From positions 65,757-129,756 of the forward strand of contig NW_003314301.1 of the NCBI RefSeq assembly GCF_000143415.4: a stretch of 64,000 nucleotides of DNA. The letters run 5' to 3'. The stretch comes from Selaginella moellendorffii (taxonomy: Eukaryota; Plantae; Lycopodiophyta). Shown piece after piece: positions 5,325 to 58,108 of this stretch; position 1 is the stretch's first letter, and each line of letters begins with the position of its first letter. The notes under the pieces were generated by a model. That model saw only the letters and a list, made by a program, of their open reading frames with translations, made no database searches and had not been told where the DNA came from. Position numbers and translations under genes: made by a program.

Positions 5325-5406
5325 ATCTCGATCAACATAAGGTCTAGAAAGGTGATTAGTTTATATGGTCGCTTTGATGTATGGTACGCATCAGGCATCC
5401 CGACTT

Positions 5407-10394: not shown

Positions 10395-11943
10395 ATGGAG
10401 GATGTGCTGCCCGCGCTGCTGCTGCAAACAATCCTGGCACGGACGGATGCCGTGGACTGCGCTAGGGTAGCTTGCGTCAATCGGCGATGGCGGGCGCTGG
10501 CGCACGACGACACGCTCTGGTCGCAGCACTGCCGGGACGAGTATGGCGTGTGCGCTGCCGCGGATTTCATGGGCAATCCCTGCTGCAGCTTCAAGGTGAG
10601 CGAGAGAGCGAGAGATTGTAGCATTTTCTAGCGGGCATTCTAGGACAAGAAGTGGATTTAAATCCCACCATTGGTTTTCTCGCAGGAAACTTACGCTGCC
10701 TGGCACGACGAATTCAACCAGTATGGTGGGCTCGTCTATCGGACCAAGAAACTCTGGGATGATTTGAAGGGCGTGCTGCGCTCCAATTACCCCGCAGTGG
10801 CCGATTCTCTCGCCCGCCAGGCCTCGGAGGCGGACATTGTCGCGGCCGAGAGCACGCTGGGCTGGCCTCTGCCTCCTCACGTCCGCCTTCTCTATCGCTT
10901 CTGCGATGGCCAGCAGATCGTGGATGGCGACGAGATCGCTCACCAGTACGTGGGTCTTCTCGGAGGATACTACTTCTACAATCACTTTGTCAACGTCCAG
11001 CTCCTGCCGCTCCAGCAAGTTGTCTCCTACACCCAGCGCCTCCTCTCGCGAGCTCCCGCTGGAACCAAGAGGATCGTCATCGCCGCGTCGTGCAACTTAA
11101 ACAAGTTCTTCCTCCTCGACTGCGACAGTGGGATGGTGCTGGTTGGCACCAAGAACTTCCTCAAGAAGTACGAGGTGATGCCTTGCCTGCCGCTGGCGAG
11201 TAGCAATCCCGGCGATGGCATGCTTCGGTGGCTCGAGGAATACCGGGATGGACTTTTGAGTGGCAAGTATACAGTGCGCAACGACGATGGGATCCGGAGC
11301 ATCAGCCTCTATCCGGAGAATGGGTCCACTTGCACAGAGGCTGTGACACAGGGAATCCAGGTGCGTGCTTAAGGTTCTTTGCGGTCTCTTTGTTGTGACG
11401 TTCTGTGAATTTTTCCAGGTGAGAGCTTCTGCGGTGTTTGTTCCTGAGCTGTCTGATCCAGAGGCTCTAGAGAAGTATCTCTTCAGTTACTCCGTTCGAA
11501 TGCGGTTCCTGCCCGTCAGTGCGTTGGCTTCTAACCAGTGTCAACTTTCGAGGCGCCACTGGGTCGTGACCGCCGACGATGAAATCGTCGATGAAGTGCG
11601 TGCTGAGGCTGTGGTTGGCATGGTAAGCTCTAGGATCTCGTAGCAAAACAGGACTTTTTTATGTGAGCTTACCCTTGCTTCTTCCAGTATCCGCTTCTCA
11701 AGCTCGGTGGCGACGCCTTCGTTTACGAGAGCTGTAGCACGCAGAACACGCTGTCCGGATCGCTGGAGGGCGATTTCACGTTCGTGCCTGGATGGTATGT
11801 TGGTTTCTCTCTTTTGGTTTAGCTCGCTAAAGAATTTGCTCTCTCTCTCTCTCTCTCTTGGCAGCCTTAGCAGGCAAGAAGGTCCAGAGTTTTGCGTGAG
11901 AGTGGCACCTTTCCCTATGCAAGTTCCTCGGTACATATTCTAA
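10395..11943 (+). CDS. SKIP16: F-box protein with SMI1/KNR4 and ApaG domains (SKIP16-like)
   Basis: F-box (DCARVACVNRRWRALAHDDTLW), AESTLGWPLPPHVRLLYRFCDGQ, ApaG motifs TQGIQVRA..YSVRM..CQLSRRHWVV..AEAVVGMYP. Confidence 0.88.
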
Positions 11944-22042: not shown

Positions 22043-22679
22043 ATCGCTGGCGAAAGAATTAAAATTGTTTGATTATTTTGCAGGTAAGATTTAAACAAAC
22101 CAGTTTACTTTAGTTGACCATTATTGACCTTAGTTGGCTGGGAACAAAGGTTAGATAAGTGCTAAGTTATGCCCTTTTAACTCAATATCCGGCACAGGTT
22201 GCTTTAGGAGACGAGAAAAGGCATTAATTTAGTCTCTGCGTTTTATTTCTCAAGTTGTTTCTCACTTTTTGGTTTCTCCAATCAACACAGAAAATAACCG
22301 AATTCTCATAACAGGAGGAATTCCTACTGCTCTTTGCCTATCCCTCCCCAAAATTGCCACTCCAAACCCCATGAATCTTCTTTATTCCTTATTCCTTCAG
22401 GTCACACGCACTCAGAATTCGAGCGGCTTCTTCTATCCTGCGTCTCCAGGAAAGTTGTTAATCAACAACGCTCCAGCATCTGACGATCATCACTAAATAG
22501 CTGCTTTAAATGCTCCATCTACGTTGTTTGATGCCAGCCACGTGAGGGGCTCGAGGAAACGAAAGCGGAAATTCAACTTCTGGTTGCTCTTCTCTTACAC
22601 ATTTCGATTACAGGAGTTCTCTATCAGAAAAAGGATAGAAACAATGCAGATGAAGGTTCAGGCCCCAGGCAGCAGCTTC

Positions 22680-23534
22680 TGTGAGGATGTAGTACATTTG
22701 AGATCACCATACGGCTGAGACACGTGGTGACATGTGGTGGATCTGGAGAGTCACAACTCTCACCTGTGTATGTATAGCAGTGATGATATTCGAGTGATAG
22801 AGTTTTTCTCTTCTTCCTTAGTTTTCAACATGGTATTAGAGCTCAGGGATTAAATTCTAGGCTGAATAGAGGATGAAGAGGAGGAAGACGATGAGCCCCC
22901 TGATCTAGAGCGGCTGTGAATTGCAAATATCAAGATGGAGGTTTTCTTGTTTATTTTGTCTTGTGCAGGCAACCCTAAAATTGAGGCGGTTCTTGATCTA
23001 GATTGGAATTGGAAGGGTTGCAGCACTGCTTGCTACTGCTGGAGACGATCTGATGCCCCTGCTGCTACAAGGGAAGGCTTCCTTGGGCTGGAGATTTGCT
23101 GATGCTGCCAAGAGGCTTCTCTTCTTCCTGGGAATTGCTATGTGCAAGGGCCTTGAAGCTGATGGGGAGATCACATTTGAGTGGGGGACATAGAACAAGA
23201 TATTGGTTCCTGACGGGTCCTGATACAAGCTGGGCTGTGTGCAAGCTTGGGTACCTTGGAACATACTGTTATTATTGTTCAACACCACAAGATTCTGATT
23301 TCATGAGCTCAGCTTTTCTCAGCTGAGTGGGGGGAGTGAGATAGATTCACAATGGTTTAGCATTAGTTTCTTTTTTTCTGACCCAGCTTTGGCACATTGA
23401 TCTTGAGTGGGGGTGTAACAATGTAGTACATCTGAGATCACCATATTTCTGAGACACATGGTGACATGTGGTGGATCTGGAGAGTCATAACTCTCACCTA
23501 TGTATGTATAGTGGTGATGATATCTGAGCAAGAG
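22680..23534 (+). mobile_element. TRIM (non-autonomous LTR retrotransposon), plus-strand copy, 3' LTR truncated
   Basis: 151-bp LTR TG..CA 22680-22830, tRNA-Met-type PBS tggtattagagc 22831-22842, PPT gagtggggg 23405-23413, second LTR from 23414. Confidence 0.88.
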
Positions 23535-23546
23535 ACTCCGATACCA

Positions 23547-24410
23547 TGTTGAAAACTAAGGAAGAAGAGAAAAACTCTATTGCTCAAATATCATCACTGC
23601 TATACATATATAGGTGAGAGTCCAGATCCACCACATGTCACCACGTGTCTCAGCTGTATGGTGATCTCAAATGTACTACATCCTCACACCCCCACTCATT
23701 CGAGATCAGCATGCAAAGGCTGGATCAGAAAAAAGAAATTAATGCTAAACCACTGTGAATCTATCTCACTCCCCCACTTAGCCAAGAAAATTTAACCTCA
23801 TGAAATCAGCATTTTGTGGTGTTGAACAACAATAGCAGCACGTTCCAAGGTACCCAAGTTTGCACACAGCCAACTTGTATCAGGACCCATCAGGAACTAG
23901 CATCTTGTTCCATGTCCCCCACTCAAATGTGATCTCTCCATCAGCCTCAAGGCCCTTGCACACAGCAATTCCCAGGAAGAAGAGAAGCCTCTTGGCAGCA
24001 TCAGAAAATCTCAGGAAGCCTTCCCTTGTAGCGCATCAGATTGTCTCCAGCAGTAGCAAGCAGTGCCACAACCCTTCCAATTCAAATCCAGGCCAGTCTC
24101 GATCAAGAACCGCCTCCATTTTAGGGTTGCCTGCACAAGACAAAATAAACAAGAAAACCTCCATCTTGATATTTGCAATTCACAGCCGCCCCAGATCAGG
24201 GGGCTCATCATCTTCCTCCTCCATTCAGCCCAAGATATAATCCCTGAGCTCTAATACCATGTTGAAAACTAAGGAAGAAGAGAAAAACTCTCTCGCTCAG
24301 ATATCATCACTATTATACATACACAGGTGGGAGTCGTGACTCTCCAGATCCACCACATGTCACCATGTGTCTCAGCTGTACGGTGATCTCAGATGTACTA
24401 CATCCTCACA
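23547..24410 (-). mobile_element. TRIM, complete minus-strand copy
   Basis: LTRs 24410-24260 and 23688-23547, PBS 24259-24248, PPT 23697-23689; a second PBS-like tggtatcggagt follows the 3' LTR (23546-23535). Confidence 0.9.
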
Positions 24411-25506
24411 ACTTCACTTTGGAGAGGCTCATGGCAATCTTCTCATGCATTGCAACAGGGATTTAGACACAGGTTTTCTGCTCACTGTGCAGGAATGAAG
24501 GTCACGTCAGTGCAGCTACAATGCTCGTTGGCGTTGGTCAAGGAATCACTCATCCACTTGAAGGATTTCCAAAGCTTCGGTGCATTGGTGTGCTTTCCTG
24601 TTTGATTCCTCTTTTAACGAAGCTTTGCATATCGCTCTGGGAGCACTAGTTTTCCAGTGGCCAAGGTGTTAAAACTGCTCAAGTGGAGTAGATCCATGTC
24701 GTCGTCGATGATGTTCTTGTGGGAACTTCGGGCTGAACTCGAACATCCAGGTCATTGTATGCTTGTCATGTTCGCCTTTCTTCGTCCTTACTGCTTCTTG
24801 TCTCTTTTTCAGGCTGAATATGTGGCGTATCTAACTGGTAGAGTAGAAGAAGATCGAAATGCAAGCAGCCTGTATCACCACACCGGCTGGGTGCCCATAC
24901 TTTCTGCAAATCTCACTTTAGAGGAAATGTTGTAAAGCACAGATGAATTCGAGAAGTCTGAAGGCAGGTCACAATATAGAGAAATTCTCCCTAGCCTTGA
25001 ACACGAGTTGCTACTTCCAGGGCTTGGGCCAGTGCTTGACACTGCATCGCTCATGTCAACGCTGCTTGTCCTAGTCCAGATTCTTGAATAGAACGAGGGA
25101 GATTCAACTGTGTGGGGCGAATACTTTGAGCACCCCATGTTAAACGTTGGTGAGTCAACCAAAGGAGGCTATCAGTTTTTTGCCTTAGATTACCACTTGC
25201 AAAAAATCTAACAAAAATCTAATCTAAGGATTGCTGAATAGCATTTCTGAGACGCTTGAGAATATCATTAGTGATTTGGAAGGCCTTCTTGAGCACTTCA
25301 TCGGCAATGGCAGGACTGGAAGCAAATATCGCCCTTGGAACCTGGGTGATTCCCGGGATCTGAGAGCTCAACCCAGTATAGCGTGGTAGCGCTTTGCTAA
25401 AGTTGGCATGCAGCTAACCAAATAAGTTCTAAAGAGACCATACATAGACAAAGCGACCATATAAACTAATCACCTTTCTAGACCTTAGGTTGATCGAGGC
25501 TGTGAT

Positions 25507-26856
25507 ATGAGGATCGCTTTGTTGACGTTAGTTTTCATTGTTTCTGTGGGACTTACCAAATCAAATGGCATGATCAAGAAGCCTCTGGTCATTCTCATAT
25601 CTGTTGATGGATTCAAATGGGGTTACCAGTTTAAGACGTCCACTCCAAACATTGACTTCATCAAGGAGAATGGTGTGGAAGCTTTTCCGGGTATGATTCC
25701 AGTGTTTCCCACAGTGACAATGCCAAATCACAATTCCATTGCTACTGGTACGTCATAAAAGATTTTCTTATTTGTTGGTAAATCAATTAATTTAAACAGG
25801 TTTGTATCCTGCATGGCACGGAATTATTGCCAATAGTTTCGTGGATCCATCAGACCCTTCATTTCCAAGGTTTAACGTCTCGTGGGCGGATCCAAGGTGG
25901 TGGCACGGAGAGCCTCTTTGGGAAACGGTAGTTAGGAATGGACTCAGAGCTGGAACTTATCTATGGCCGGGGAGTGAAGTTGTAAGAGGCCACTGGACTT
26001 GTCCTCAAGAGTACTGTGCTCGCCTTGCAAACTCATCTCTTGCCTTTGAGGACCGCATTGACTCCATTCTAAAGTTTGTGGACATGCCAGTTTCCAAGCG
26101 GCCAAGCTTCATTGCTGTTTACTTTGACAATCCGGATCACGCAGGGCATGCCTCGGGACCAGACTCGCAAGAGCTCACAGATGCTGTGAGCAACATTGAC
26201 AAGATGGTTGGAAGACTCTTGGATGGTCTGGAAGCGCGTGGGATACTCAATGATGTTCATATTATCATGGTTAGTGACCATGGCATGGTAACGAGCTGCG
26301 AGAGTAAGGTGATTTATCTCGAGGATTTGGCTCCATGGATCAGAATCCCTGATGAATGGTATGACTGGGTTGGAGCAGTAGTTGCATTGAGACCTCCAAG
26401 AGGTAATTTATGTGATAACTCTATTTTGACTCTTATTGACTAAGCTTTTGACCAGGTTTTGATGCAAAGCACATTGTGAAGAAGATGAACGAGGGATTGC
26501 AGTCAGGAAGGGTGAATAATGGACAGTTCCTCAAGGTTTTCCTCAAGGAAGATTTGCCAGAAAGGTTACATTTCTCACATGGCAAGTTTGGTCAACCTAT
26601 CATTGGGTTGGCTTCAGAAAGCTATACTGTGAAGCTTGGGAGATCAACAAATAGTAGCTGTGGAGGTTTTCATGGTTATGACAATGCGTACTCCTCAATG
26701 CGGTCTGTTTTCTTTGCTCATGGTCCAAGATTTCCGAAACGAAAAGTGGCATCGTTCCCTAATGTGGAGATATATAACATAATCACCACAATTATAGGAA
26801 TTCGAGGAGCCCCAAACAATGGAACACTGTCATTTGCTCGTGATATTTTGATTTGA
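25507..26856 (+). CDS. Secreted nucleotide pyrophosphatase/phosphodiesterase (NPP, alkaline phosphatase superfamily), 3 exons, intact
   Basis: Signal peptide, ILISVDGF, FPTVTMPNHNSIATG (catalytic Thr), WWHGEPLWET, PDHAGH, SDHGM, GFHGYDN. Confidence 0.92.
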
Positions 26857-26947
26857 TATTCAAAAGGCATATATGTACTTCTTCAATTAGGCTATTAAGA
26901 AGAAAGATTTGAGTACTCAAGGCTGTTGCAGCAGTGAACTTCTGTCA

Positions 26948-28303
26948 TCATTTGGGCTCTCTCCGCACTTTCCTATTGGAAGTGAAGTTGCAAATCTGCG
27001 TAATGTTCAGAGATGGATAAATGTATCGACCTGTGAGCAATGCCTTTGACAACTGCCGATAGAACGACTCGGTAAAGTGAACGCCATCCCAGCTGACGTA
27101 CTCCGAAGGTTTCAAAGTGGTACCGTTTGGCTGGATAACTAGTCCGCATGGCTGAGTAACGTCAAAGTTATATTCCCCTCCATTCCCGCAACATGCTGAT
27201 AGTTTAGTCTTGTTTTGGAATCCTGGAAAGACATAAATGAGTGTAATTACAATAACACCACATGATCTCACCATAAACTAGCGGTTTATCCAGGACATCC
27301 AAAGTGAATTTGTAAGCATCTGCATAAAGAAGATGAAATCCCGTCCTGTTCTTTTGCAAGACTTGGATTTCATCATACAACTGCTTGTTGAACGCTTCCG
27401 CAACTTGGTTAAAAGGGAGAAGACAACCCCGAGAGTCCTTTGGCATATATTTTCCAAATACGCTCAGCAATACCGGCATGCAGCCGTGAGGGAACGTGCT
27501 GAAGACCAACAAGTTTTGTGCGCCATGCTCATGGAGACTCTATTAAAGGCTTTAGAACAACTTCAAGACTGAATGCAACTTTGTGTACCCGTAATGCGTG
27601 AGAGATGGCTCTCACAACGTATGGAACAACCTCAGCTGTTACATTCTCAGGGCTTCTATGCTCCAACAAGTAGGAATTGAGAAGGTCGTTAGTACTTATG
27701 ACAACCGCATACAGAGCAGTCTTTAGATGATGATAATAAGGAACTAGCTTTTGCATCCCTACAGAGGAAACTATGAATGACACTACCTTTGCAAAGTCTG
27801 AGACGAATCATTACCTTTACCATGTCCGCTGTCGTAAGCATCCTGCTTGAACCTCAGAAACTGGTCAATCTGAACCGGAAGGTACAGTGGGACTTCGAAG
27901 CTGGTGTTCAAAGCAGTCGCTCCAGAGACCGCAAAATTCACCCCGTTGGCATAATTCGAGTTAATACTTTGCAAAATGGGATCCAGGAATCTATCATACT
28001 CAAAAGCCTCCGCTGCAAAAAAATACACGAATAACATCAAACGCTGTTTAATCAACGCACACAATTACCAAAAAAGNNNNNNNNNNNNNNNNNNNNNNNN
28101 NNNNNNNNNNNNNNNNNNNNNNNNNNNNNNNNNNNNNNNNNNNNNNNNNNNNNNNNNNNNNNNNNNNNNNNNNNNNNNNNNNNNNNNNNNNNNNNNNNNN
28201 NNNNNNNNNNNNNNNNNNNNNNNNNNNNNNNNNNNNNNNNNNNNNNNNNNNNAGCAAATAACTCAGCAATCACTAGAACTGCCGCTATTGACAAGAACTC
28301 CAT
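26948..28303 (-). CDS. GDSL/SGNH esterase-lipase, right copy (exon 1 interrupted by assembly gap)
   Basis: GVNFAVSGAT, STND, PHGCMP, GCL..FNQVAEAFNKQL, CCGNGGEYNF, WDGVHFTE. Confidence 0.85.
28077..28252. other. Assembly gap (N run)
   Basis: 176 N. Confidence 1.
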
Positions 28304-28964
28304 GATAATCAATTGTGAGCGAGCAGAATGTCGACTTGATGCCGCTGATCTTTTCTGGAGCTGCAGAAACGATGTGATCATTATCTTAAAACTCGAAGAT
28401 GAACCTTGGTTCTGTGGACGACCACCTGGACTACTACTTTGTCGCGTATAATGACGAACTTTCTTGTTTCCCGATTTCATTTTATGTTTAAACAAACAAA
28501 ACTTTAGTACAGTTTATTGCTCGTGGTGATTCGCCATGCTGCAGTTTGGAACATGTCAAAAGATGAAAGCAATCAAGCAAGCACTCACTCACCATTGTCT
28601 TCTTGCTCGGATCACTGGCTGGTTCTTCTGAATTCGATCCATTGTCCGTGCTTTCCTGGCCTTCCCGTGCTAAGCTTCGTATATGGAGGTAAAAGCTATG
28701 GCCGTTTCGATGCTCACGCTTAATCCCCCATAACGTAGTTGATCAGCAGTCAAACCCTCGAAGTCCCGATCCAGATTCGCTCTGCTACTTCCCGCAACTC
28801 GGCAAATCACTGAGCTTGAGCCTCTTTGCACTTGTAGCACTTCACGGAAGAACACAAAAATAGTGTACGACAAAGTGGTACGGCTAACATACGGATTGTA
28901 CGTAATGTGATCAAGATCGGACGGCTATCATCGACGCGGGAATTTCAGATCAGAAAAATGGAAA

Positions 28965-35899: not shown

Positions 35900-36339
35900 C
35901 TCAACAGGAGAGTTGTAAATACTACTACCACTACAGGCTACTCTCGTATCATGGGTGAGTATCATTCGCTTCAACTTAGTCAGCACGGATTTCTCTGATC
36001 CGAAAGATGGTGTTTGACATGATTGAGATCTAATCACTTTGGCACCCAATGAAAGATAGAAAAGAAATTCAAGTAATGTGCCCAGACAGAAAGGGTCCAT
36101 AGCAAAATCGCCGAAGCCATTTGCTGCGGATGAGTGTGCTGGATCAATCTAGCAAGAGAAAAATAAGTCGCAAGCAACAGCGCATTGCTATCGACTGAGT
36201 GCCCTTGCCTTTGCATACAAACCCTAGGCGGCCACAAGAGCCCTAATAAATCCAAACCTAGCATATTCCTAAAGCATCAAATAGATTAGCATATTCGGTG
36301 AGTATCGCATATTCAACTTTTATTCTAGATGTAGCATTC

Positions 36340-37605
36340 TCGAAGACCTTGGGCTCGCTGGATTGTCCAATCCCACACGCTCGATCAGCTTACCTCAGTG
36401 GTGAGGATGTCTAGATCGGACTCGAGCCTTATAACATCCGCACCAGCTCCAATGAAGTTCTCGGCGGTTTCGATGATACTTTTGGTATCTGGTAGTTTCG
36501 ATCAATCGATCAAAGGTTTTTTCTAGTCTTTGGAATTCACCTTCTTCGAAGAGGAAAAGCCCAGGCTTCGTTCTTCAGATAGAGAAAGTCATCCTTGGCG
36601 ATCTTGTCACACAGAACATCAAATTCGATCATATCGAAGCCAAAGGTCATTGCAGTCCTGGAAGAAAAATCGACAAGAACACAAAAAAGCATTAAAACCG
36701 ATCGACAAGAGAAAGAACTTCTCATTCATTCTCATCGTACCTGGACGTACTGTTTGAAAGATTGGTCAAGAACGAAAAAATCAAGCCAAAGAAAAGGAGG
36801 ACAACTTACAACTTAACTCGCAAAGATGCAAGTCAATGAAACGCTGGGAGAACACTCTCCCTGTGGATAGCTCGGGGATCCAATCTTCTCTTAAATGTGG
36901 ATAGTCAAAGGATATTCGGCCTCCCTCAAGAACATCTTCGGCCCATCCACCGGAGGTCACATAAATCCCGCGCCAATGAGCGAGCTCGATCATATCCCTG
37001 AGCGACCGCGACATCAAATTGGAGAACTGGAGCCCATCGATCGAGCTCCCGCTGGACTCCAAAATTTGCTATACCACTCAGAAACTCACAATCTCGCAGT
37101 TCCTCCCTTCCTCGAGGTAGCGCGATCCCAAGAAAGAATGTGAGTCCGCCCGGTGATCCGGCTTCTCCGTGCGACCATGAAGATCACATCGCCCAAACAT
37201 CGCTCCCCTGACCAGAAGCTTAGTTTTGTACTAACGTTTTCTAGCAAAGTCCTTTGGTGGGCTTTTCCTCGTCAATCGAAGAACCGTCGCTACGATCGAG
37301 CAGCGCGACGCGCTGATTTCAAAGCTCTGGACGAGCTCTTCCTCTTCGCTTCGTTCCTCTTTGAGAAGAGAAATCAACAAGTTGATTCCAAGTCCACCAG
37401 CTCGAGTAGTAAGTAGGAAAACGAAACCCTCCCCTGCTTCAAATTTTTTACGCTGACATTTATGTGTGGCAAAACGAAAGAACGTAATCACCTGCTTTTG
37501 CCTGTCCTCTTGCTTGACATTTCCGTCCAAACGAAACGGTGGCATCCCCCTTTCCCCGAGACAAAACTCAAGGATGTCTGTCATTTGAGAGAAAAAAGGA
37601 ACCTG
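36340..37605 (-). pseudogene. Deleted direct duplicate of the HSA32 gene and the DDM1 3' region
   Basis: Colinear with ~41325-43140, introns retained, many internal deletions and frameshifts (e.g. 37370-37381 joins 42447 to 42895). Confidence 0.88.
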
Positions 37606-38296
37606 ATATAAGCACATTAAGTAGTGTTTACTTACATGTTGGTTTGGTTTAGATATTATAAGTTTTAATATTAATTAGAACATAATTTTGGAAGACCATA
37701 GTTTCATAACGAAGGTACACATTTAACACTTCTAGATATATACACATCAAATGTTGCAATAAATTAGAGATTTATTTCATTACTGATAATGGTAAGGTGT
37801 AAATGTTTTCTACGGTTAAAGGTGGTGTTTTTTTTTATATACTACATGCCATGCTAACTGCTGGTGGTATGACTATACCTGGCGCACTCTCAACACCAAC
37901 TTGGAAGAATTTTTTTTACCAACTTTCTCTTCGCATTTCTTGGCTGCCTCCACTCTTGCCGTCTGATCAATGGAAGCATTCTGCACAAAAAAACCACACA
38001 ATGATCACAAAAGAAAGTCACGCTCTGTTTATTATTAGTGTTCAACCTTTTTTCTCCCACATGTACTCCCCTAGAAACCAAACTTACCCTCTGTACTACA
38101 CTACATTGCTCGAAGAATTCCCTAATGCCATGACATATATCTGCCACTGACCATCGTCACCAAAAGGGTGATGCAAGACGCTCCTTTCGCCTTGAGTTTT
38201 GTCTGGTAATAAACATAGACAAGTATTTTATATGATTCCTACATCTCCAACTAAGAATGTAGCTACAGCACCAGATACTTATTTCCAAACAGGTCC

Positions 38297-40543
38297 TTAG
38301 GGATATGACAATGGAAGCATGCGCTTCACAATATCCTCCTCCGTGTCAGTCATCTGCAGAACATGACCATGGGTGTTGAGCTTCAGCACATCCCTCATTG
38401 CGTCCACAACAGAATCCTCTAAAAGAAACGGGAACAGCTGACGAGACAGCCCGTAAATAACTATAGTCCTCTGGGCAGAACCTTCAACACTCACACGATT
38501 ATCAGGCGAGCCGAGCTGGAAAACAAGACTAAGCATGAACCCCACGCCATCAACACCAGCCTCAAGCTTCTCAACTGCTTTTGCCATGCCAGTCTTTCTG
38601 TCAGCTTCCCATCGTTTTGCCTGAATCCCAATCGCACCCTTGCTGCTTGGCAGAACGTTGTGAACGGCCTTCTGTCCGGGCTTGCACGTTAATGCTCGAT
38701 AGTGTTGGGAGCAGTCGTTGATCAGGGCGGCATCCAACCTTCCGTAAGTTGGCGAGAAGCTATTAAACTGGAGCTCAGCGTCCAAGTGAACTGTGCTTGC
38801 TAGACCGTCTGGAACCATTCCCAGCAGCGTAGTCAAGAACTCTCGGAGTGTTATCTTCTTTGTGTACATCACGTCCTTCTTGCCTTTGAGACACGTGAGC
38901 ATGGCTAGCAGCACTAGTAACCTGGTGACCATCTCTCCCCTTGGATCACCAGTAACCACGCCTTTCTTGCACATCTTGGAGACGGACACAAGAATCTTGC
39001 AGAGCTTGTTCTTGTCAAGTAAGACTGATGCTGCGGCTGATGCAAGAACCGGTTCAGCAGCATTAGAGACGTGAACTCGTTGCATGTCTTCGGAAATCCA
39101 CGATGCCGTCATCATATGATGGGCCATGCTGAGCTCCGCCACCTCCGACCATGATGCAACCTCCACTCCAACAGTGCACCCGAGAACACCAACCACCATC
39201 TCATCTTTTAGTTCCTCCTGCAGGTTAAGCTTGTCCCTCGCAAGGCCGAGCAACTTTTCAGGACTGCACCCTCGGTCGATAAAAGCACGCCACAGAGGCC
39301 TTCCAAGGCGGAAGACAGATTCTGCTCCACCAGGCCGAGGAGGTGCCGCTGTCCCTGTTAGCCAAAACGGCTTGAACAGCTTAAAGTCTCGAGAGGGCAC
39401 TTTTCTTGTCGGATCCAAGGCTTGCGCCGGCACAGAATTTGACAAGCGCGGATTCGTACCAAGCATTACTGCCCAAAGACCAGAAGATGCTGTCCTGAGA
39501 ACCCGCCTTAAAAGTGTGAATCCAGTATCCATTTCATCCGCCAACTCAGTATCCGCCAACGTTCTAGCCTCGTCAAAGCAAAACAACACCTTCAGCCGCT
39601 TGCCGTCGGGTCCCGCAACGCCAAGCACAGGCAACTTTTCGATGGCAGCCTTCAAGGCTCTCTGCACAGTACGGTATACATGGTTTTCCCCCCACACAAA
39701 GTTTGTGGTCTGACACTCAAACGTTATCAGGCCGGGCGCCTCTTGCGCCAACACTGCAGAGTCTTGAAGACGCTCCAGACAGCCTGGTATTTTGTCACGT
39801 ATCATGGCTGCTATAGGAAAGCCATGCTCAGGATGCGTCTGCTTCAAAATCCAGAGACCCGGGTTAGGACCTCCGCCGCCTTCTTCTTTAGAGTTTCCAG
39901 TGTCAGACTCCCCAACATACTCTCCGAGAGCCTCAATGCTGGCGATTAGAAACGCAGCCATCTCGAGTGCCGTTGCGTTTGTCGTACAGATCCAGTCGGC
40001 CAAATGTGGAGTCCGGCCGGGCATTCCAGCCGAGTCAACCTTCATGCAGGAGACATAGATGGTGTACAAGCCTTTCCTGTGAAGCTCACACGCGAGCCTT
40101 GACTTCCCCCAGCCGCTGCTCTGCACCACAGCAAAGAACGGCGCAACGTACTTGGAGCCGGGCGTTATCCAGGTCATGTAGTCCTGCTCGATCTTACGCC
40201 ACAGCTCCTCCAGTATGTCCATGTCCTGAAGCGGATAGTCGAAAAAAGCTTTCTGTGCTATCCCCATGCCCGGCGCTCTGCGAGCCCGCCACATGCGGAC
40301 GTTGATATCCAGAGACTCCTCAGCCATGCTATCCACCGCAGCCAGAAACTCCTCCCTAGTGTTGAGATTTGCCAGCCGCGTTCGCTTACTACCGGTCGAG
40401 CACAGCCAACCCGCAACTGCATCTATGTCCCCCGATGCAAAATTGGATCTCACCCATGAAGCGAGACATTCGAAGGTGAGGTCCTTCTCAGTTGGAGGCC
40501 TGAAACTTGCTGATTCAAAGATCTTCCTCACTCGTTTCGCCAT
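38297..40543 (-). CDS. Intronless ~748-aa P-loop NTPase with C-terminal restriction-endonuclease-like region (Crinkler/CR-effector-like)
   Basis: Walker A FAVVQSSGWGKSRL, Walker B VLFCFDEARTL, LGRPLW, AEPVLA, GDPRGEMVTRLLVL, CKPGQ..GIQAK; uninterrupted 2.25-kb ORF. Confidence 0.7.
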   Translation of the reverse strand: MAKRVRKIFESASFRPPTEKDLTFECLASWVRSNFASGDIDAVAGWLCSTGSKRTRLANLNTREEFLAAVDSMAEESLDINVRMWRARRAPGMGIAQKAFFDYPLQDMDILEELWRKIEQDYMTWITPGSKYVAPFFAVVQSSGWGKSRLACELHRKGLYTIYVSCMKVDSAGMPGRTPHLADWICTTNATALEMAAFLIASIEALGEYVGESDTGNSKEEGGGGPNPGLWILKQTHPEHGFPIAAMIRDKIPGCLERLQDSAVLAQEAPGLITFECQTTNFVWGENHVYRTVQRALKAAIEKLPVLGVAGPDGKRLKVLFCFDEARTLADTELADEMDTGFTLLRRVLRTASSGLWAVMLGTNPRLSNSVPAQALDPTRKVPSRDFKLFKPFWLTGTAAPPRPGGAESVFRLGRPLWRAFIDRGCSPEKLLGLARDKLNLQEELKDEMVVGVLGCTVGVEVASWSEVAELSMAHHMMTASWISEDMQRVHVSNAAEPVLASAAASVLLDKNKLCKILVSVSKMCKKGVVTGDPRGEMVTRLLVLLAMLTCLKGKKDVMYTKKITLREFLTTLLGMVPDGLASTVHLDAELQFNSFSPTYGRLDAALINDCSQHYRALTCKPGQKAVHNVLPSSKGAIGIQAKRWEADRKTGMAKAVEKLEAGVDGVGFMLSLVFQLGSPDNRVSVEGSAQRTIVIYGLSRQLFPFLLEDSVVDAMRDVLKLNTHGHVLQMTDTEEDIVKRMLPLSYP

Positions 40544-41136
40544 GGCTGTCGACAAACAACCCTTAGGTATGTAAAAGGTCCGGGTTATCTGCTAAAATAA
40601 GAAGATTTTGAGTAAAGTTCCAATCAAATAAATAGGATGGATCAATCTAGACAACAGTTAATACCGGCTGTAAGATATCGAAGAAATAACTCTTACTTGT
40701 ACTTGTTCTTGAGAACATGTGAGAGCAGGGCAATATGAAGTCTCAAGAGTGGTGAAGTTATGGAGCATTAGAATGTCTACTTTATTTCTTTTTATCTTCT
40801 TCATTGTCTCTTCTTGAGCATAATTCCCTTGATTTTTTAGGAGAGTGGCAAGAACATTTGATAGCAAGGTCACCATTCTTGAATTTGTGTTGTAAATGAG
40901 AACAGTCACCTCAAAAAGATTTATCTCCTCAGTTGCTTACAGGTATCTTGGGAGCTTTTGGCTTGATTTTTTTTTTTCTATTTCAGGTGTTGGGTAAAAT
41001 CTTTTAGTTCCCATTAGGAATCCTTAAAGAAAAGACAAATCTATAATGTAGCTTGGGCCAATCGATCAACCACTTTCACTCGAATCCCGATAACACATCT
41101 TTTTAATCTCTTTCTTTCAACTAGTATTCGTAAATA

Positions 41137-42114
41137 TTATAACAGAGGAGCGAAAAGAGGACGTGGACGACGGCCCTTTCCCGCGCGAAGGCATTCCAGC
41201 TGAGGAACGTGCGAGTGATCCACGAACAAATTCACCTGTAAAACACAGTTCGATTCGCTGTGATCGATCTCGAGTGTTTGTTTTCATTCGGTACCTGTCG
41301 ACCGTAGTTTGTGATGAACCACTCGAACACCTTGGGCTCCCTGGCTTGAAAGATGAGTCTGTCCAATCCCACTCGCTCGATCAGCTTGGCGATCACGTCA
41401 GTGGTGAGGATGTCTAGATCGGACTCGAGCCGTATAACATCCGCACCAGCTCCAATGAAGTTCTCGGCGGTTTCGATGATAGTTTTGGCATCTGGAAGAG
41501 CAAAGTTTGGATCAATCGATCAAAGAGCTAGTCTTCAGAACTTTACCTTCTTCGAAGAGGAAAAGTCCAGGCTTGGGTTTGAGACCCTCGTTCTTGATCA
41601 TGCGAGTGAGATAGAGGAAGTCGTCCTTGGCGATCTTGTCACACAGAACATCAAATTCGATCATATCGAAGCCAAGGTCTTTGCAGTCCTGGAAGAAAAA
41701 TCGATAAGAACACAAGAAAGGCATTAGAAACGATCGACAAGAGAAAGAACTTCTCATTCATTCTCATGGCACCTGGACGTACTGCTTGAAAGATTTCCGG
41801 CCGCCCCCAAGAACATCTTCGCCCCATCCACCGGAGCTCACATAAATCCCGTGCCGATGAGCCAGCTCGATCATATCCCTGAGCAGCGACCGCGACATCA
41901 GATTGGAGAACTGGAGCCCATCGATCGAGCTCCCGCTGGACTCCAAAATTTGCTACACCACACAGAAACTCAAACTCTCGCATTCCCTCCCTGGAATCCA
42001 TACCTCGAGGTAGCGCGATCCAAAGAAAGAATGGTAGGGGCCTCGAATCTCCGTCCGCCCGGTGATCCGCGGCTTCTCCGCGCGATCCATGAAGAACACA
42101 TCGCCCCCAAACAT
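41137..42114 (-). CDS. HSA32: HEAT-STRESS-ASSOCIATED 32 (phosphosulfolactate-synthase-related)
   Basis: DRAEKPRITGRTEIRGPY, DGLQFS, LAHRHGIYVSSGGW, CKDLGFDMIE, VNLFVDHSHVPQLECLR. Confidence 0.85.
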
Positions 42115-42244
42115 CGCTCCTCTAACTCTAGGGCTTTCCAGAAGCTTAGATTCCTTGGCATATTTTGTACTAACGTCTATATACCTTTTCTTCAAGGAAT
42201 AGATCCCGACTATAGCTATACAAAAAAAAAAATGGATGGGACGA

Positions 42245-45250
<3,006 letters not shown>

Positions 45251-45403: not shown

Positions 45404-46831
45404 CTAGGATCGCTTGACGAGCTTGCAGAGATGGACGTCGAGCTTGGTGGCGCTCACGCTCGACTCCTGCGTCACCTCCCACGAATCGTAGCGCAGGAAC
45501 ATCTCCGCGATGAATTGGACCGCGATGAGCTCCGCCTGGTTCTTCCCCGGGCACTGCTTGTTGGTGGGCGTCGGCGAGTCCGTCTCGCGCCCATTCGACC
45601 ACACGATGTGTGGCAGCAGCGCCGCGCCCTCGCTGCCCATGAATCGATCCGGCACGAAGCTGTGAGGATCCTTGAAAACCACCGGATCTCTCATCACGAA
45701 GTACTGGTGCGTGCCAAGCAGCTCGCCCTTCTTGATCTTGTATCGCGCGTCGTGCGATTCCACCTCCAGATCCTGCCGCGCGCGCCCAAACGCCACGAAG
45801 ATCGATGGCATGAGCCGGAACACCTCGAGCACAGTGGCCTTGACGAGCTTGAGATCCCCCAGCGCCTGGATCGAGGCCGCGTCCTCGCGCTTCTTCATCC
45901 TCCCGCGGATCTCCTGCTTGAGCCTGGCCTGGAACTCCGCCCCGGCTCGCGCGATGAAGAAGAGGATCGGCGGGAACATCTTGAGCAGCCCAAGTCGAGT
46001 GTTGATCCCGAAAGAGAAGACGAGGTTGTGGAGCGCCTCCTCGCGATCCAGCCCGTACTTGGTCACGGCCAGATCCAAGAGCCCGGACCCGGCGGAGCGG
46101 AAGAACTCGACGATCTGTTCGTACTTCTTCTTGATCGGGAAGAACGGGAGCTGGAAGCTGTGCATGAGTAGCTCCTCGGTGATGTGAGGGAGATTGGTGT
46201 AGGCGATCCCCGCGAACTGGACGCCCGTCCAGGCCATGTACACCGAGTGTGGATCATCGCCCATGGTCGCCATGGGGTCCTGGTGAGTGATCGTCTTGTA
46301 CAGGAACTGGATCACCATGTTTCCAGCAGTGCTCAGCGACTCCACCGAGCCATCCTTGGCGATCTTCGCCTCCCACTCCTGGGCAGTGCGATCGAAGGCG
46401 CTGCTCAGCTCCGGCCCGAATCGCTGCGCGCTCTCGTGGAGGATCTCGAACATGAGCGACTTGTACGTGGTGTGCTTCTCCTCGGCGGTGTCCAGGTACG
46501 GAAGCGTACGGTAGCCGCCGGTGAAGGCCAGGTCGGGCATGTAGGAGCCAATCAGCGTGTCGCGCTTGTCCACCTTGGCGTTGTCGAGGAGCACGGAGTA
46601 GCTCACCTGGTCGAGGAGGACGATGCCATGACCCTCGGGGAAGCCCGGCGGCCCCGGCGGGAAGTTGACACGGAAGACTGTGCTCTGGTTCTTCTCCATC
46701 CGGGATTTGTAGAACTCCACCTCGCCCTGGAACCAGTAGAAGTCGAGGCGATCCTTGAGAGCTCCCACGACTGGGACGCCATAGCTGCCCGGGACGTCCT
46801 TGAGGGGCTTCTCTTTTCCACTTGCAGACAT
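45404..46831 (-). CDS. CYP74: CYP74 fatty-acid hydroperoxide-metabolising P450 (non-AOS type; DES/EAS/HPL-like)
   Basis: VPGSYGVP, STVFRVNFPPGP, TGGYRTLPYLD, WSNGRET, NKQCPGKN; intronless 475-aa CDS. Confidence 0.93.
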   Translation of the reverse strand: MSASGKEKPLKDVPGSYGVPVVGALKDRLDFYWFQGEVEFYKSRMEKNQSTVFRVNFPPGPPGFPEGHGIVLLDQVSYSVLLDNAKVDKRDTLIGSYMPDLAFTGGYRTLPYLDTAEEKHTTYKSLMFEILHESAQRFGPELSSAFDRTAQEWEAKIAKDGSVESLSTAGNMVIQFLYKTITHQDPMATMGDDPHSVYMAWTGVQFAGIAYTNLPHITEELLMHSFQLPFFPIKKKYEQIVEFFRSAGSGLLDLAVTKYGLDREEALHNLVFSFGINTRLGLLKMFPPILFFIARAGAEFQARLKQEIRGRMKKREDAASIQALGDLKLVKATVLEVFRLMPSIFVAFGRARQDLEVESHDARYKIKKGELLGTHQYFVMRDPVVFKDPHSFVPDRFMGSEGAALLPHIVWSNGRETDSPTPTNKQCPGKNQAELIAVQFIAEMFLRYDSWEVTQESSVSATKLDVHLCKLVKRS

Positions 46832-47207
46832 CCTCTTGCGCAAAGCTTCGACCTGGAGAGATTGGAATGAATACGCCCAAGGGTAGATCTGGGATCTCGG
46901 ATTTATACACGGACCTTGGGCGCGTGCTTCTCGTGGTCCTGGGCGCCCAGAGTCCACCAGACAGACCACGATGACCCGCCACGTAAGGCTAATCGAAGAC
47001 AATGCAAAAGAGTCCAAAGAATTGTGAAAAAAAAGCTAAAGAGTAAAGATACCTGAAGATTTCCGATAAGAAACAATCTCTCGCGAGATGTGGGCAACCA
47101 CAAATGCCACAGTTGTTTGATTGATCATTGGCAAGAAAACTATGGCAGGAGTCAGTGTCCTACAACCGTACAAGAGCGCCGTACCTTTCAAGGCGGCGGT
47201 CAATCAG

Positions 47208-53700: not shown

Positions 53701-55680
53701 TGCTAAGTCAAACACTCATCTGGATCACATCCTCAACTCTCTGAGGAAACCCTTATACTGTTCCCAAGATCCCAAAGTCGTTCCCTTATTGGCCCTTTTC
53801 CATCCACCACATCGTGCACAAGTTCAAGCATGAACTTGAGCGAAGAAGCATGTCCTTTCGATATGCTACTCCTAGAGGATAGGTCCATATCTAGGACTTT
53901 CCAATTCCAATACAAGTGGTGATATATTTGGCCACCAATAAGAGTCGGACTAAGGAATAGCTCCGATACCAAGTTGTAAGCGACTAATTTTTCCATTCTA
54001 CTTTAGTCACTTAACCACACCTTTGACCACTTGGAGGAATCTCATTCACAACCTCCTTAAGTCTAATTCAGGACTTGGGACTTGCTAGCCCCGAGGATGG
54101 CATCCATGCCACTCATCCTTTGCACTTAGTCCAAGTGCTCCACGTGTCCGGTCCCAAGACTGACACCCAAAGGTACCACTAACATATCGGCCCGTTACGT
54201 TAAGGCCATGCTCATTCACCTTTGCCGCACTAGTGGTCCAATACCACTTGCATCACAATCCCGTCTCTCCAAGACTAGGCCATCCGTCCACGAGTGGTCA
54301 TCCCAGATCCACTCCTTAACATCCTTAGGATGCCCACAGACATGGGGAATAACCTTCCCCAATATCCCTTTGTCAGTTCCTACCAAGTCCCTTTTCCATC
54401 CATGGCCATGTTCGCAAACACTGCCACTCGATCAAGGCCCACAGGCCCGACCACTAAGTCCCATGGTCCTCCAGGACTTCCTCACCATGTGATTGTATCC
54501 TTAGTCACTACACTAAAGGACTGCTCTTCCTCCTTCCCCCCATTTGGGACTTCGGGACAACATTTCGGAACACCATAGGCCTACGCGAGCCCCGTGGGTA
54601 TTCTCCCCGCCTTCCGCCTTTAGGTGCTCTAGCCATGGGCTTAAAGCGAGGTTCCGTTGAGCCACGCCTGGTATCCAAGTAGGTAGTGCCACCCACACTT
54701 GGACTGGGAGCATCGGCCAGTTGATCTCCCGGGGGAACTAGAGTCAGCTCTTGAACACTTCACTAAGCTACCCCACTTGTCGGTCCGTATTCACTCTAGT
54801 CTTGGACTTCCTAGTAGTCAGTTCATCACCCAACACTGGGTCTGGCCTTCCTGGGCCAAACTGGCCTTTCCTGGCCAAACTGGCTCCACTGTAGTCCTCC
54901 CCCTTACTATACTTTTGGAGCTCACCAAACCCCCCAGGGTCTGGGAGACGAACGCTTTGGGCTTTCACCCTCTCAGACTCGGACTCGGACTCGGACTCAG
55001 ACTTAGACTTGGACTCGGACTCGGACTCGGACTCGGACTCGGGCTCGGGCTCGGGCTCGGTCTCGGTCTCGGTCCCAGTCTCAGTCTCAGTCTCGGTCTC
55101 GGTCTTGGTCCCGATCTCGGTCCTGGTCTCGGTTTCGACCTCGGACTCCATCTCGGGTCCTTCTCGGACTCCATCTTGGACTCCATCTCGGACTCCGTCT
55201 TGGTCCATCTCGGACTCCATCTCAAACTCCATCTAGGGTCCATCTTGGACTCCATCTCAGGTCCATTTCGGACTCCATCTCGAACTCCATCTTAGGTCCA
55301 TCTTGGACTCCATCTCGGACTCTATCTCAGATCCATCTCGGACTCCATCTCGGGTCCTTCTCGGACTCCATCTCGGACTCCATCTCGGACTCCACCTCGG
55401 GTCCACCTCGGACTCCATCTCAGACTCTATCTCGGGTCCATCTCGGACACTTCCATGTGTCATGTGTTAGTCCTTTTTGGGTCCCTTTTTTAGAGCCTCG
55501 CTTATTGCTCGCTTCGTGCTCATTCCTCGAGCACTTGTTGGGAGTTCCACTCCTGCTCTCGACCTATCAAGTTGGAGCTTTTAGTCCAAACGTGTTACGC
55601 TCATTTGGCTTTCGCTTCAGCCACTACCACGTGGCACCCTTCCGGCTCCACTTTGGGGCCTAGGGATTTTGTGTCTCACA
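50750..55680 (-). mobile_element. Decayed LTR retrotransposon (probably Ty3/gypsy), minus strand; LTR from 53975 rightwards
   Basis: Reverse-complement PBS gctccgatacca 53960-53971 next to an LTR end TG at 53975; stop-riddled internal region; outer boundaries approximate. Confidence 0.55.
54975..55450. repeat. Hexamer/12-mer minisatellite (GACTCG)n grading into (GGACTCCATCTC)n inside the LTR
   Basis: Directly visible; related array in opposite orientation at 63610-63855. Confidence 0.9.
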
Positions 55681-56831
55681 GCGAGGAGGAGGGTACCCCA
55701 CCGACTAAAGCAACATGGAGCTTAGGTTTAGACCCAAGCGGGATGCAAAACAAAGAGCGATACAACTTAGCAGAAGCTAAACTAATGTCTTAGGTGGTTG
55801 GATGTGCATTCCAACTACTATCCCTACTATACATTTAAACCCCTCCCCACTTTGAGGAACACATGCTTTGGGCTTTCACCCCAAACCTCCCTTAATATTA
55901 GGAGTTAGTCTCTAGGACAAGTTCAAAACTTACTAAATATGGAATATCCCTAGATTGCAAATTTGGCCACGGGACAAACACTATTGTGTTCAGAACAATC
56001 TTTATATTTTGTAGATATGCCAAATGAGCAAGTCTAGCCACTTTCTATAAATAATTTTTGGGACCGAAATGAGACTAACACAAAAGGCATAATAGCAAAG
56101 GTGTTTGGTAAATACAGTAAAGTATCATATAGTGATATTAAGGGATTAGACTTAATACGTGAGGGCTTTTGCCAAGCCAGTGCAAGACAGAGCAAAAAAG
56201 AACTAACAAGCAGGGCCAAGTATGTTTGGCTAAATAGACACTTAGGAATTCCTTCTTTATGTTTATTTGGCTAAGTACAAATGCTAAGTTTAGTTTACTA
56301 ACACTTGAATAAAAGGGGTTAATAAAGGGAACCAACAGTACTGACTTTTTTGCTGATATGGCAGTAAAGAGAGAGTGCCCATAAGAACTTGCCGACAAGT
56401 ATCTTTCAATACCCGAAGTTATATTCACAATATAGGAGGAAGTTGGTTGAGTTTTGAAATTTGTATTCCTAAATTGAGAGTCATTTTTTCTCTGAGATAG
56501 AAAATTTTCCACAAATTTTCATACAATTTTCCAATGGTTAATCTATTAATCATTTTGCCTAGAAACCATTCCATTTTTGAAAGTCAGTATAAATTGGTGA
56601 AAGGGTTAGAGTTGACTTTAATTAGTTTAAACTTTAGTAAATAGTTTATATGATGGAGCCTAAAAGGGATATTAACTTTTAGGGTTAAGGCAATTGAGTA
56701 AATAAAGTTCAAAGTTGGTGTAAATAAGTGGTTATTACGCTTTTTTAAGAAAGGTGACCTTTATGCCTTTCTTTTATAATGTTATACTTGGTGGTAGATT
56801 GCACTTTGCATTTCGTTACATTTTATGAGAG

Positions 56832-58108
56832 TGTAAGCTCCTGAATTTGGACTTCTCGAGAGGTCACCCAGCCCATTACTATTTAAACCCAAGGACACTT
56901 AACTCTAAATATCCCAAGATCTTTAACCTATTAGAAAAGGGGGTACACTCTTGTTCATAGTGTAAGCTTCTAAGTTTGGACTTCTCGGGATGTCACCCAA
57001 TCCAGTACTATTCAAACCCAAGGATGCTTAACCCCAAATATCCCAAGACCTTTAACTAATTGAAAAAGGGGATGCATTCTTATTCATATGCCCCTTCCCT
57101 CTATATTTGAACCCTTATGGATCATCTCTCGAGTTGTTCCCTTTAATTACTTACAATCCACCACACTTCCCTGCAAGTTCACGCCCTCGTGAATGGAAGC
57201 TGAGAGCCATAGCCCTCCTCAGCTATGGCTCAGAGCCCCACTCTCTTGACACTCTACCCCTCGAGTTGAGCCCAGCGGGAGTAAACTAGACCAACTAGAT
57301 GTCAATCAATATGTGGTGCGATTCCCCTAGCCAACCAACAGAGTTGGACCCGAAACCCCTCTGATACCAAATGTAAGCTTCTGAGTTTGGATTTCCCGGG
57401 AGGTCATCCATCCTAGTACTATTTAAACCCAAGGACGCTTAACCCCAAACATCCCAAGACCTTTAACCAATTGGAAAAAGGGGTGCACTTTTATTTATAT
57501 ACCCTTTCCCTTTATATTTGAACCCTTATGGATTGTCTTTCGAGTCGTTCCCTTTGGTTGCTTACATATAGGCCTTTTCCTTCTATATTTAAACCTTTAT
57601 GGATTGTCTCTTGAGTTGTTCCCTTTGGTTGCTTACACATAAGCCCTTTCCCTTTATATTTAAACCCCATGGATTGTTTCTTAAGTCGTTTTTTTTTTAT
57701 TACTTACAATTCACCACACTTTTCTATAAGTTTACACCCTTGTGAATGTAAGTTGAAAGCTACAGCTCTCTCAAGAGCCTCATTCTCTTGACACCTTACC
57801 CCTTGGGTTGAGCCTAGCTAGAGCAAACTAAATTTACCAAATGTAATCAACATGTGGTGCGATTCCCTTAAGCCAATCAACAGAGTCAAATTTGAGACTC
57901 GCTCCGATACCAAATGTAAGTTTTTAAGTTTGGACTTCTTGGGAAGTCACCCAACTCAATACTATTCAAACCTAAGGATGTTTAATCCCGAGTATCCAAA
58001 GATTATTAACCAATTAAAAAAGGGGGTGCACTCTTATTTATGGGCCTTTTCCTTTTATATTTGAACCTTATGGATCGTCTTTCAAGTTGTTTTCTTTAGT
58101 TGCTTATA
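56832..58108 (-). mobile_element. Nested cluster of Cassandra-like TRIM LTRs and internal regions
   Basis: Interrupted LTR 56832-56960 + 57567-57637, LTR fragment 57638-57708, internal region 57709-57914 with PBS, LTR 57915-58108. Confidence 0.82.
56961..57566 (-). mobile_element. Complete Cassandra-like TRIM with 5S-rRNA-derived LTRs
   Basis: 195-bp LTRs 56961-57155 and 57372-57566 (TG..CA), PBS tggtatcagag 57369-57359, 216-bp internal region, TSD catag/tatag, 5S A-/C-box sequence at 57443-57389. Confidence 0.88.

What the first reader, a model, noticed from the sequence alone, without database searches (positions are those of the whole stretch)
38297..40909. Crinkler/CR-type NTPase + REase-fold gene embedded in a plant housekeeping cluster
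Seen: a 2.25-kb ORF with no introns among mostly intron-rich neighbours. It has an atypical Walker A (VVQSSGWGKSRL), Walker B (FCFDEA), LGRPLW, EPVLA, GEMV.RLL and a terminal CKPGQ..(AVHNVLP)..GIQAK segment. Known: this NTPase + restriction-endonuclease architecture is characteristic of Crinkler/RHS-type (CR) proteins, which are expanded in rust fungi, glomeromycetes and oomycetes and are thought to derive from transposons. Inference: this is a horizontally acquired or mobile effector/toxin-like gene in a lycophyte-type genome. The His where a D..QxK nuclease has its Asp suggests a nuclease-dead, possibly domesticated version. An in-frame candidate upstream exon (within 40658-40909, donor gtaagag, acceptor at 40563-40562) could supply an N-terminal header domain.
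Basis: partly seen in the sequence, partly recalled or inferred. Interest (0 to 1): 0.78.

Follow-up and report, generated by a model that had tools for sequence, protein, structure and literature searches.

The report
Likely silent plant Crinkler-type ATPase-nuclease copy
This spikemoss gene encodes an ATPase joined to a predicted DNA-cutting domain, resembling proteins of fungi and water moulds; it belongs to a family shared with ferns and likely old, and this copy, which lacks a key catalytic residue and was not seen in three RNA samples, is likely a dead duplicate.

Summary
The ORF is real: 38297-40543, minus strand, 748 aa, Selaginella moellendorffii. The architecture holds. The N-terminal part is an AAA+/STAND-like NTPase (Z 9-11). 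The C-terminal domain's best structural matches are restriction-fold nucleases (Z 5-6, modest). A fern paralogue aligns structurally to Crinkler and oomycete clusters. His628 sits where 129 of 136 aligned proteins have Asp, and only this locus has it. Two inferences fail. First, a recent transfer into the lycophyte: at least 29 Selaginella gene models fall into three subfamilies, each shared with Adiantum ferns, and Selaginella monophyly is rejected (p-AU 2e-46); no donor is resolved. Second, the upstream exon: it has no reads. In three RNA runs, 0 of 446 reads match this copy at 99% or more, and 26 of 26 reads at the His codon carry Asp. The most-read paralogue has lost two other catalytic residues. 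The gene lies inside a decaying 5-kb tandem duplication. Verdict: likely a silent, nuclease-dead duplicate of a known kind (CR proteins in land plants are reported); the family is more interesting than the copy.

The parts
38297..40543 (-). Single open reading frame, 748 aa (N-terminal 725 aa identical to model SELMODRAFT_418867)
40289..40543 (-). Predicted alpha-helical N-terminal region (residues 1-85), the candidate header; no family assigned
   Evidence: five helices, block pLDDT 60-82; no Pfam or PDB match
39023..40282 (-). P-loop NTPase of AAA+/STAND-like fold plus following helical domains (residues 88-507)
   Evidence: VIA Z 11.2 ORC/Cdc6, 10.9 NRC2, 10.1 Avs3, 10.0 plant resistosome 6j5t; Foldseek best E 8.7e-3 CED-4
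40094..40129 (-). Walker A, VVQSSGWGKSRL (139-150), family consensus
39566..39583 (-). Walker B, FCFDEA (321-326)
   Evidence: D 136 of 136, E 135 of 136
39290..39307 (-). LGRPLW (413-418); resembles the GxP motif of STAND NTPases (recalled, not tested)
   Evidence: G 132, R 130, P 121 of 136
38300..39022 (-). Predicted PD-(D/E)xK restriction-endonuclease-fold domain (residues 508-748)
   Evidence: domain model pLDDT 90.8; top VIA rows CdiA-CT, Cdn1, Can2, DdmD, Z 5.3-6.0
38933..38935 (-). Glu537, first predicted catalytic acid; kept here, Lys in paralogues P0004-P0006
38660..38662 (-). His628 at the position of the conserved catalytic Asp; found only at this locus
   Evidence: Asp 129, His 3 (P0001-P0003), gap 4 of 136
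38615..38623 (-). QAK (641-643), the (D/E/Q)xK motif; kept here, Arg641 in P0004/P0005
40697..40909 (-). Proposed upstream exon: rejected as a header exon on present data
   Evidence: zero depth over 40618-40980 in 4 of 4 runs; no Pfam hit
40996..42100 (-). Expressed, spliced ComA-family gene (upstream neighbour; left end from a contig, right end approximate)
   Evidence: four joints and depth 13-33; Pfam ComA via P0003 mapped by tblastn
42200..45034 (-). Expressed, spliced SNF2-family helicase gene (ends approximate)
   Evidence: 11 listed joints; Pfam SNF2-rel_dom
36328..37625 (-). Decayed direct copy (81-85% identity, introns kept, deletions) of the SNF2 3' end and the ComA gene, downstream of the ORF; repeat period about 5.0-5.5 kb
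   Evidence: depth 0 over 37204-38106

Best explanation
The gene is one copy of a multi-gene Selaginella family, shared with ferns, of Crinkler/RHS-type proteins with an AAA+/STAND-like NTPase and a predicted restriction-fold nuclease; this copy is likely nuclease-dead and likely silent, a recent duplicate on its way out. Intact members would likely work as ATP-gated DNases in intracellular defence or genetic conflict: the header or NTPase senses a target, nucleotide exchange and likely oligomerisation switch on the C-terminal nuclease (inferred from the fold and from the model proposed for CR proteins; untested here). The family likely entered plants, or was already there, before lycophytes and ferns split, and evolves by birth and death with repeated loss of catalytic residues.
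For: Fold. CR link: Atlas structure search with the fern paralogue P0021 gives TM 0.78 to an oomycete-dominated cluster and 0.52 to a cluster with 87% Crinkler headers; feature search of this protein gives basidiomycete clusters at 0.98 and a 19%-Crinkler cluster at 0.89, a lead only. Age: three subfamilies each hold Selaginella and Adiantum (ultrafast bootstrap/SH-aLRT 99/96, 100/100, 100/100); P0020 vs P0021 48% over 704 aa; Gly362 marks subfamily A in both genera and in no other row; Selaginella monophyly rejected, p-AU 2.4e-46. Dead site: His only in P0001-P0003. Silence: 0 of 446 reads at 99% or more, 26 of 26 reads Asp at 38662, while neighbours are read at 99% or more (351 of 598 and 307 of 506 reads). 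Other locus-specific changes hit conserved sites (533: Gly in 127 of 136; 370: Phe/Leu in 116 of 136). Context: decayed duplication.
Against: The frame is open in both presumed alleles and their indels are in frame. Among the 40 best-supported of 204 listed differences to the expressed paralogue, 18 are synonymous (pN/pS about 0.38, p 0.002), so constraint acted on at least one lineage. Run X1 holds a 158-nt contig identical to this copy where a sister contig differs at 13 places. The three raw runs come from one study, tissue not given, about 12% of each read, with no DNA of the same plants. Derived changes are 17 here vs 10 in the paralogue, no clear rate difference. Nuclease-fold Z-scores are under 8 and Foldseek finds nothing at E 0.001. 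No activity was measured. One plant origin is unresolved (support 74; 14% of bootstrap trees).
Confidence: 0.6

Rival explanations
1. This copy is a functional pseudo-nuclease: an ATP-dependent DNA binder, decoy or brake on active paralogues, expressed only in tissues or conditions not sampled.
For: Open frame in both presumed alleles; pooled pN/pS about 0.38; Walker A and B kept; the most-read paralogue type also lacks catalytic residues (Lys537, Arg641), so nuclease-less members are transcribed; identical contig in X1.
Against: 0 of 26 reads at the His codon (upper 95% bound 11%); 0 of 446 reads at 99% or more; damage at other conserved sites; the presumed allele has Gly for Ser142 in Walker A.
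Confidence: 0.25
2. The gene is a recent horizontal or mobile acquisition by Selaginella from a fungus or oomycete.
For: Nearest non-plant named hits are fungi (Calcarisporiella, Paraglomus, Puccinia, Ascosphaera); no seed-plant or bryophyte name among 15 named clusters; single exon; patchy distribution.
Against: Best hit is a fern (E 1.6e-54); three lycophyte-fern subfamilies; AU test; non-plant identities only about 21-27%; GC 0.53 and GC3 0.57 match a neighbouring SNF2 exon (0.55, 0.57); longest inverted repeats nearby are under 30 nt and do not bracket the ORF.
Confidence: 0.05
3. The lycophyte-fern sharing comes from several separate old transfers (fungus to plant, or plant to plant), not from one inherited family.
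For: Plant monophyly is weak; CR cores are reported to move laterally (PMC5289972 section 11); only two plant genera are named.
Against: Three subfamilies each show a Selaginella-Adiantum pairing, at path lengths 0.95-1.4, which common descent explains more simply.
Confidence: 0.2
4. The His copy is still an active nuclease, with His serving as a metal ligand.
For: Glu537, Gln641 and Lys643 are kept.
Against: No other of 136 aligned proteins uses His here; the Asp of the PD motif is the main metal ligand in this fold (established knowledge, recalled).
Confidence: 0.05

Closest known systems
CR (Crinkler-RHS-type) proteins with NTPase + REase core (Zhang et al. 2016, not readable here; seen through PMC5289972 section 11 and PMC11342252 passages and section 19)
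   Same: Leading P-loop ATPase followed by an REase domain; variable N-terminal header, here helical; lineage-specific expansion; relatives in fungi and oomycetes; the review says CR proteins also occur in land plants.
   Different: His at the catalytic Asp position; no secretion or Ubl header found; which numbered CR-NTPase/CR-REase clade it belongs to was not determined.
Crinkler (CRN) effectors proper, Pfam PF20147 header
   Same: A fern paralogue aligns at TM 0.52 over 488 residues to a cluster in which 87% of members carry PF20147.
   Different: No PF20147 match in this protein or in any of the 149 best profile hits; host gene, not a pathogen effector.
STAND/NLR-type and Avs NTPase-nuclease immune proteins (NRC2, Avs3, CED-4)
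   Same: NTPase fold matches at Z 9-11; Avs3 pairs such an NTPase with a nuclease (recalled).
   Different: ORC/Cdc6 and clamp loaders score the same, so the match does not single out STAND; no repeat sensor domain; nuclease is C-terminal; no NB-ARC, PADLOC or NCBIfam hit.
Tribolium Medea1 element (CR-NTPase8 + CR-REase7; PMC11342252 section 19)
   Same: NTPase + REase architecture in a host genome.
   Different: No sequence comparison was made; no evidence of drive or mobility here.

Membership tests
CR (Crinkler-RHS-type) NTPase+REase proteins | P-loop NTPase domain ahead of the nuclease | tested here: met
   Walker A/B conserved; AAA+/STAND-like fold, Z up to 11.2, rmsd 5.3, 205 aligned
CR (Crinkler-RHS-type) NTPase+REase proteins | C-terminal restriction-endonuclease fold | tested here: met
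   15 of the top 16 VIA rows are nucleases I recall as PD-(D/E)xK; best Z 6.0, rmsd 3.2, 93 aligned. Scores are modest; Foldseek gave nothing at E 0.001. The motif order and secondary structure agree.
CR (Crinkler-RHS-type) NTPase+REase proteins | Catalytic set E...D...(E/Q)xK (PMC11342252 passage gives E...D...EXK...Q for related REases) | tested here: not met
   This copy reads E-H-Q-K. The set is complete in 85 of 115 hits outside the plant group and 11 of 44 plant-group rows (22 changed, 11 gapped; rows include isoforms and alleles; the Ser of subfamily B was counted as changed and may be a working variant).
CR (Crinkler-RHS-type) NTPase+REase proteins | N-terminal header domain | tested here: inconclusive
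   Helical 85-residue N-terminus predicted, length typical of the hits (99 vs median 103), no family match
CR (Crinkler-RHS-type) NTPase+REase proteins | Match to the published CR-NTPase and CR-REase profiles | not testable with these tools
   Paper and supplements not held; only the indirect Atlas link through a paralogue
Crinkler (CRN) effectors proper | Ubl/LxLFLAK header (PF20147) | tested here: not met
   No hit in the ORF, its N-terminus or the candidate exon; N-terminus predicted all-helical
Crinkler (CRN) effectors proper | Delivery into another organism's cell and nucleus | not testable with these tools
   needs experiment
STAND/NLR immune NTPases | NB-ARC or NACHT domain with a repeat sensor | tested here: not met
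   No such Pfam hit at E up to 1; no repeat domain in the model; fold likeness only
Autonomous transposon | Terminal repeats, target-site duplication or transposase at the locus | tested here: inconclusive
   No inverted repeat of 30 nt or more in 36000-45200; the flanking direct repeat is made of host gene pieces; empty-site comparison impossible without a genome

The most novel reading that the evidence does not exclude
Lycophytes and ferns keep an ancient, three-branched family of NLR-like NTPase-nuclease immune proteins, kin to the Crinkler cores of their pathogens and missing from seed plants, in which nuclease-dead members (made by independent losses at Glu537, Asp628 and Gln641) act as sensors, decoys or brakes paired with active ones.
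Probability: 0.2. Interest if true: 0.75.

Novelty: new member of a known kind. Interest (0 to 1): 0.4.

Why it matters
The copy itself is likely expendable. The family matters more: it puts a Crinkler-type NTPase-nuclease core, best known from crop pathogens, inside seed-free vascular plants as an expanded, fast-turning family that likely predates the lycophyte-fern split. It has tandem arrays (consecutive model numbers 428878-428880; L7F22_050576-050581), F-box-labelled models and repeated catalytic loss. That pattern resembles immune gene families and offers natural active/inactive pairs for testing what CR cores do in a host that makes them itself.

Tried and rejected
No whole genome was held and the genome index did not complete, so copy flanks, paralogue DNA, other Selaginella species and full dN/dS were not obtained. 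Pfam, PDB sequence, PADLOC and NCBIfam scans gave nothing significant. Foldseek gave no match at E 0.001 in PDB or the viral library, so no viral carrier is indicated. Prokaryotic and viral contig scans with the family alignment could not be run. The word-seeded search with plant alignment A3 returned only the same 8 proteins, missing members of its own alignment, so its blanks mean little. The search with P0021 returned 9 proteins, none named from seed plants or bryophytes; this is not proof of absence, and 119 of the 149 profile hits were never named. No RNA holder was listed as on record; RNA came from same-species raw runs. The mixture-model AU test on 70 rows did not finish and was replaced by 25 rows under LG+G4; the group tested was named after a tree had been seen. 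Literature: eight searches listed no paper on this family in Selaginella or ferns; I saw listings only for most, passages of PMC5289972, PMC6131194, PMC11064341 and PMC11342252, and sections 11 and 19 of the first and last. Zhang et al. 2016 and its supplements, which may already list the Selaginella proteins, were not seen. Three look-ups of earlier findings were empty. Rejected: the annotated 890- and 959-aa models that join the ORF to downstream SNF2/ComA fragments (no reads at 37204-38106), hence the ComA label on P0003; a SAM-like header, which I suspected by eye, found no support.

Full report
Observation. The stop-to-stop frame 38297-40591 on the minus strand holds an ATG at 40543 and a 748-aa product. 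The first 725 residues are identical to model SELMODRAFT_418867 of Selaginella moellendorffii; seven more S. moellendorffii models match at 54-97%. The 97% match (P0003) lies on another scaffold, carries the same His and the same downstream fragments, and is likely the other haplotype (inference; that the assembly holds two haplotypes is recalled).

Architecture. Pfam and PDB sequence searches gave nothing significant. A profile of five Selaginella sequences found 1226 proteins at E 0.001 or better, of which 150 were listed. In an alignment of the 136 proteins of 600 aa or more then held (24 shorter ones left out), the Walker A, Walker B, GRP, EP, GE, D and QxK positions are the conserved ones. 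A model from 92 rows has pLDDT 86: a helical N-terminus, an NTPase matching ORC/Cdc6, NRC2, Avs3 and a plant resistosome at Z 10-11 with no clear winner among AAA+ and STAND proteins, and a C-terminal domain. Folded alone (pLDDT 91), that domain's best matches are CdiA-CT, Cdn1, Can2, DdmD, AF1548, BspD6I, Card1, MspJI and similar, Z 4.6-6.0. The scores are modest and Foldseek reaches no significance, but 15 of the top 16 rows are nucleases I recall as PD-(D/E)xK, and Glu537, position 628 and QAK fall on the helix and strands expected.

Link to CR proteins. Reviews describe CR proteins as a variable header plus, commonly, a P-loop NTPase and REase, present also in land plants (PMC5289972 section 11; PMC11342252 passages). 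The defining paper was not available. The Atlas places this protein near basidiomycete clusters (0.98) and, as a lead, a part-Crinkler cluster (0.89). The fern paralogue P0021 aligns by structure to oomycete (TM 0.78) and Crinkler-header (TM 0.52) clusters. None of the 149 hits carries the Crinkler header itself. So it works like a CR core and is likely a CR protein in the broad sense, but is not a Crinkler effector proper.

Origin. I looked up 30 of the 149 hits, chosen by rank and by tree position: 15 have an organism name, 3 lead to eukaryote transcriptome records, 12 are unnamed. The best hit is from the fern Adiantum capillus-veneris. Ten named clusters are Selaginella or Adiantum; five are fungi (Calcarisporiella twice, Paraglomus, Puccinia, Ascosphaera). 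Counting distinct SELMODRAFT ids gives 29 models over both haplotypes. Trees (FastTree, 135 rows; IQ-TREE mixture, 70 rows; LG+G4, 25 rows) all recover three subfamilies, each with Selaginella and Adiantum members. Holding the nine Selaginella rows together costs 531 log-likelihood units (p-AU 2.4e-46). Whether the three subfamilies form one plant clade is open: support 0.90, 74, and 14% of bootstrap trees in the three analyses. No donor is resolved. Composition shows no foreign signal. The simplest reading is presence before the lycophyte-fern split, with an older transfer possible. Absence from seed plants and bryophytes is not shown.

Catalytic site. Position 628 is Asp in 129 rows, a gap in 4 and His in 3, all this locus. 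Losses recur nearby: P0004/P0005 have Lys537 and Arg641, P0006 has Lys537, while P0007-P0009 and Adiantum P0010/P0159 keep the full set. The NTPase motifs are kept in nearly all full-length rows.

Expression. At 95% likeness, two stranded RNA runs cover the ComA and SNF2 neighbours at depth 10-33 with spliced joints, but the ORF only patchily. At 85% likeness on 38200-40980, three runs of one study gave 446 reads, none at 99% or more; at the first base of the His codon 9 of 9, 10 of 10 and 7 of 7 reads carry the Asp base, and 5 of 5, 10 of 10 and 8 of 8 carry the Arg641 base. The reads therefore come from paralogues, mostly of the P0004/P0005 type; loose ends also match the P0006-P0008 type. 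No read falls on the proposed upstream exon. Against silence: a 158-nt contig in X1 is identical to this copy; it may reflect expression, DNA carry-over or gene conversion. Tissue is unknown and no matching DNA was laid.

Constraint. Of the 40 best-supported of 204 listed differences to the expressed paralogue, 18 are synonymous against about 24% expected (pN/pS about 0.38); this pools both lineages. Derived amino-acid changes number 17 here and 10 in the paralogue, and three of the 17 hit well-conserved sites (370, 533, 628). The open frame suggests that any loss of function is recent.

Context. The ORF lies between an expressed SNF2-ComA pair and a decayed, intron-containing copy of the same segment about 5 kb downstream. 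This is a DNA-level local duplication of host genes, not a transposon signature. The order of insertion and duplication cannot be settled from the window. The public gene models fuse the ORF to these fragments without read support.

Mechanism. Shown: frame, motifs, family membership by sequence, lycophyte-fern subfamilies, locus-specific His, absence from three RNA runs. Predicted: both folds. Inferred: ATP-gated DNase activity in intact members, a defence or conflict role, loss of nuclease activity and silence of this copy. Interest 0.4.

Noticed in passing
P0004/P0005 (paralogues outside the window), reads: The most-read paralogue type has basic residues at two catalytic positions (537, 641): a transcribed likely pseudo-nuclease, a better candidate for domestication than this copy.
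   Followed up: partly
P0031 and P0181 (Selaginella models): Family members labelled as F-box-containing; Pfam confirms the F-box in P0031 but not in P0181. May be real fusions or chimeric models.
   Followed up: no
window 2538-7183 vs 22411-28406: Large inverted duplication (80-97% identity in blocks) separated by about 15 kb, covering GDSL lipase and phosphodiesterase genes.
   Followed up: no
window 36764-36900: RNA reads of the opposite orientation cover part of the decayed ComA copy and continue into sequence not in the laid stretch (7 and 13 reads); possibly a third copy elsewhere.
   Followed up: no
window 39046-39203: In run X1 two contigs form a bubble, one identical to this copy and one with 13 differences, beside a paralogue-type contig: possible gene conversion between paralogues.
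   Followed up: partly
window 45404-47035: Long stop-free, GC3-rich (0.83) cytochrome P450 frame; looks like CYP74/allene oxide synthase by recalled motifs.
   Followed up: no
window 8859-9625, 54972-55456, 56830-58106: Tandem repeat arrays (about 153-nt, short-unit and about 127-nt periods) seen in the self-comparison.
   Followed up: no
window 10662-11372: Exon with a SMI1/KNR4 (SUKH-1) domain.
   Followed up: no
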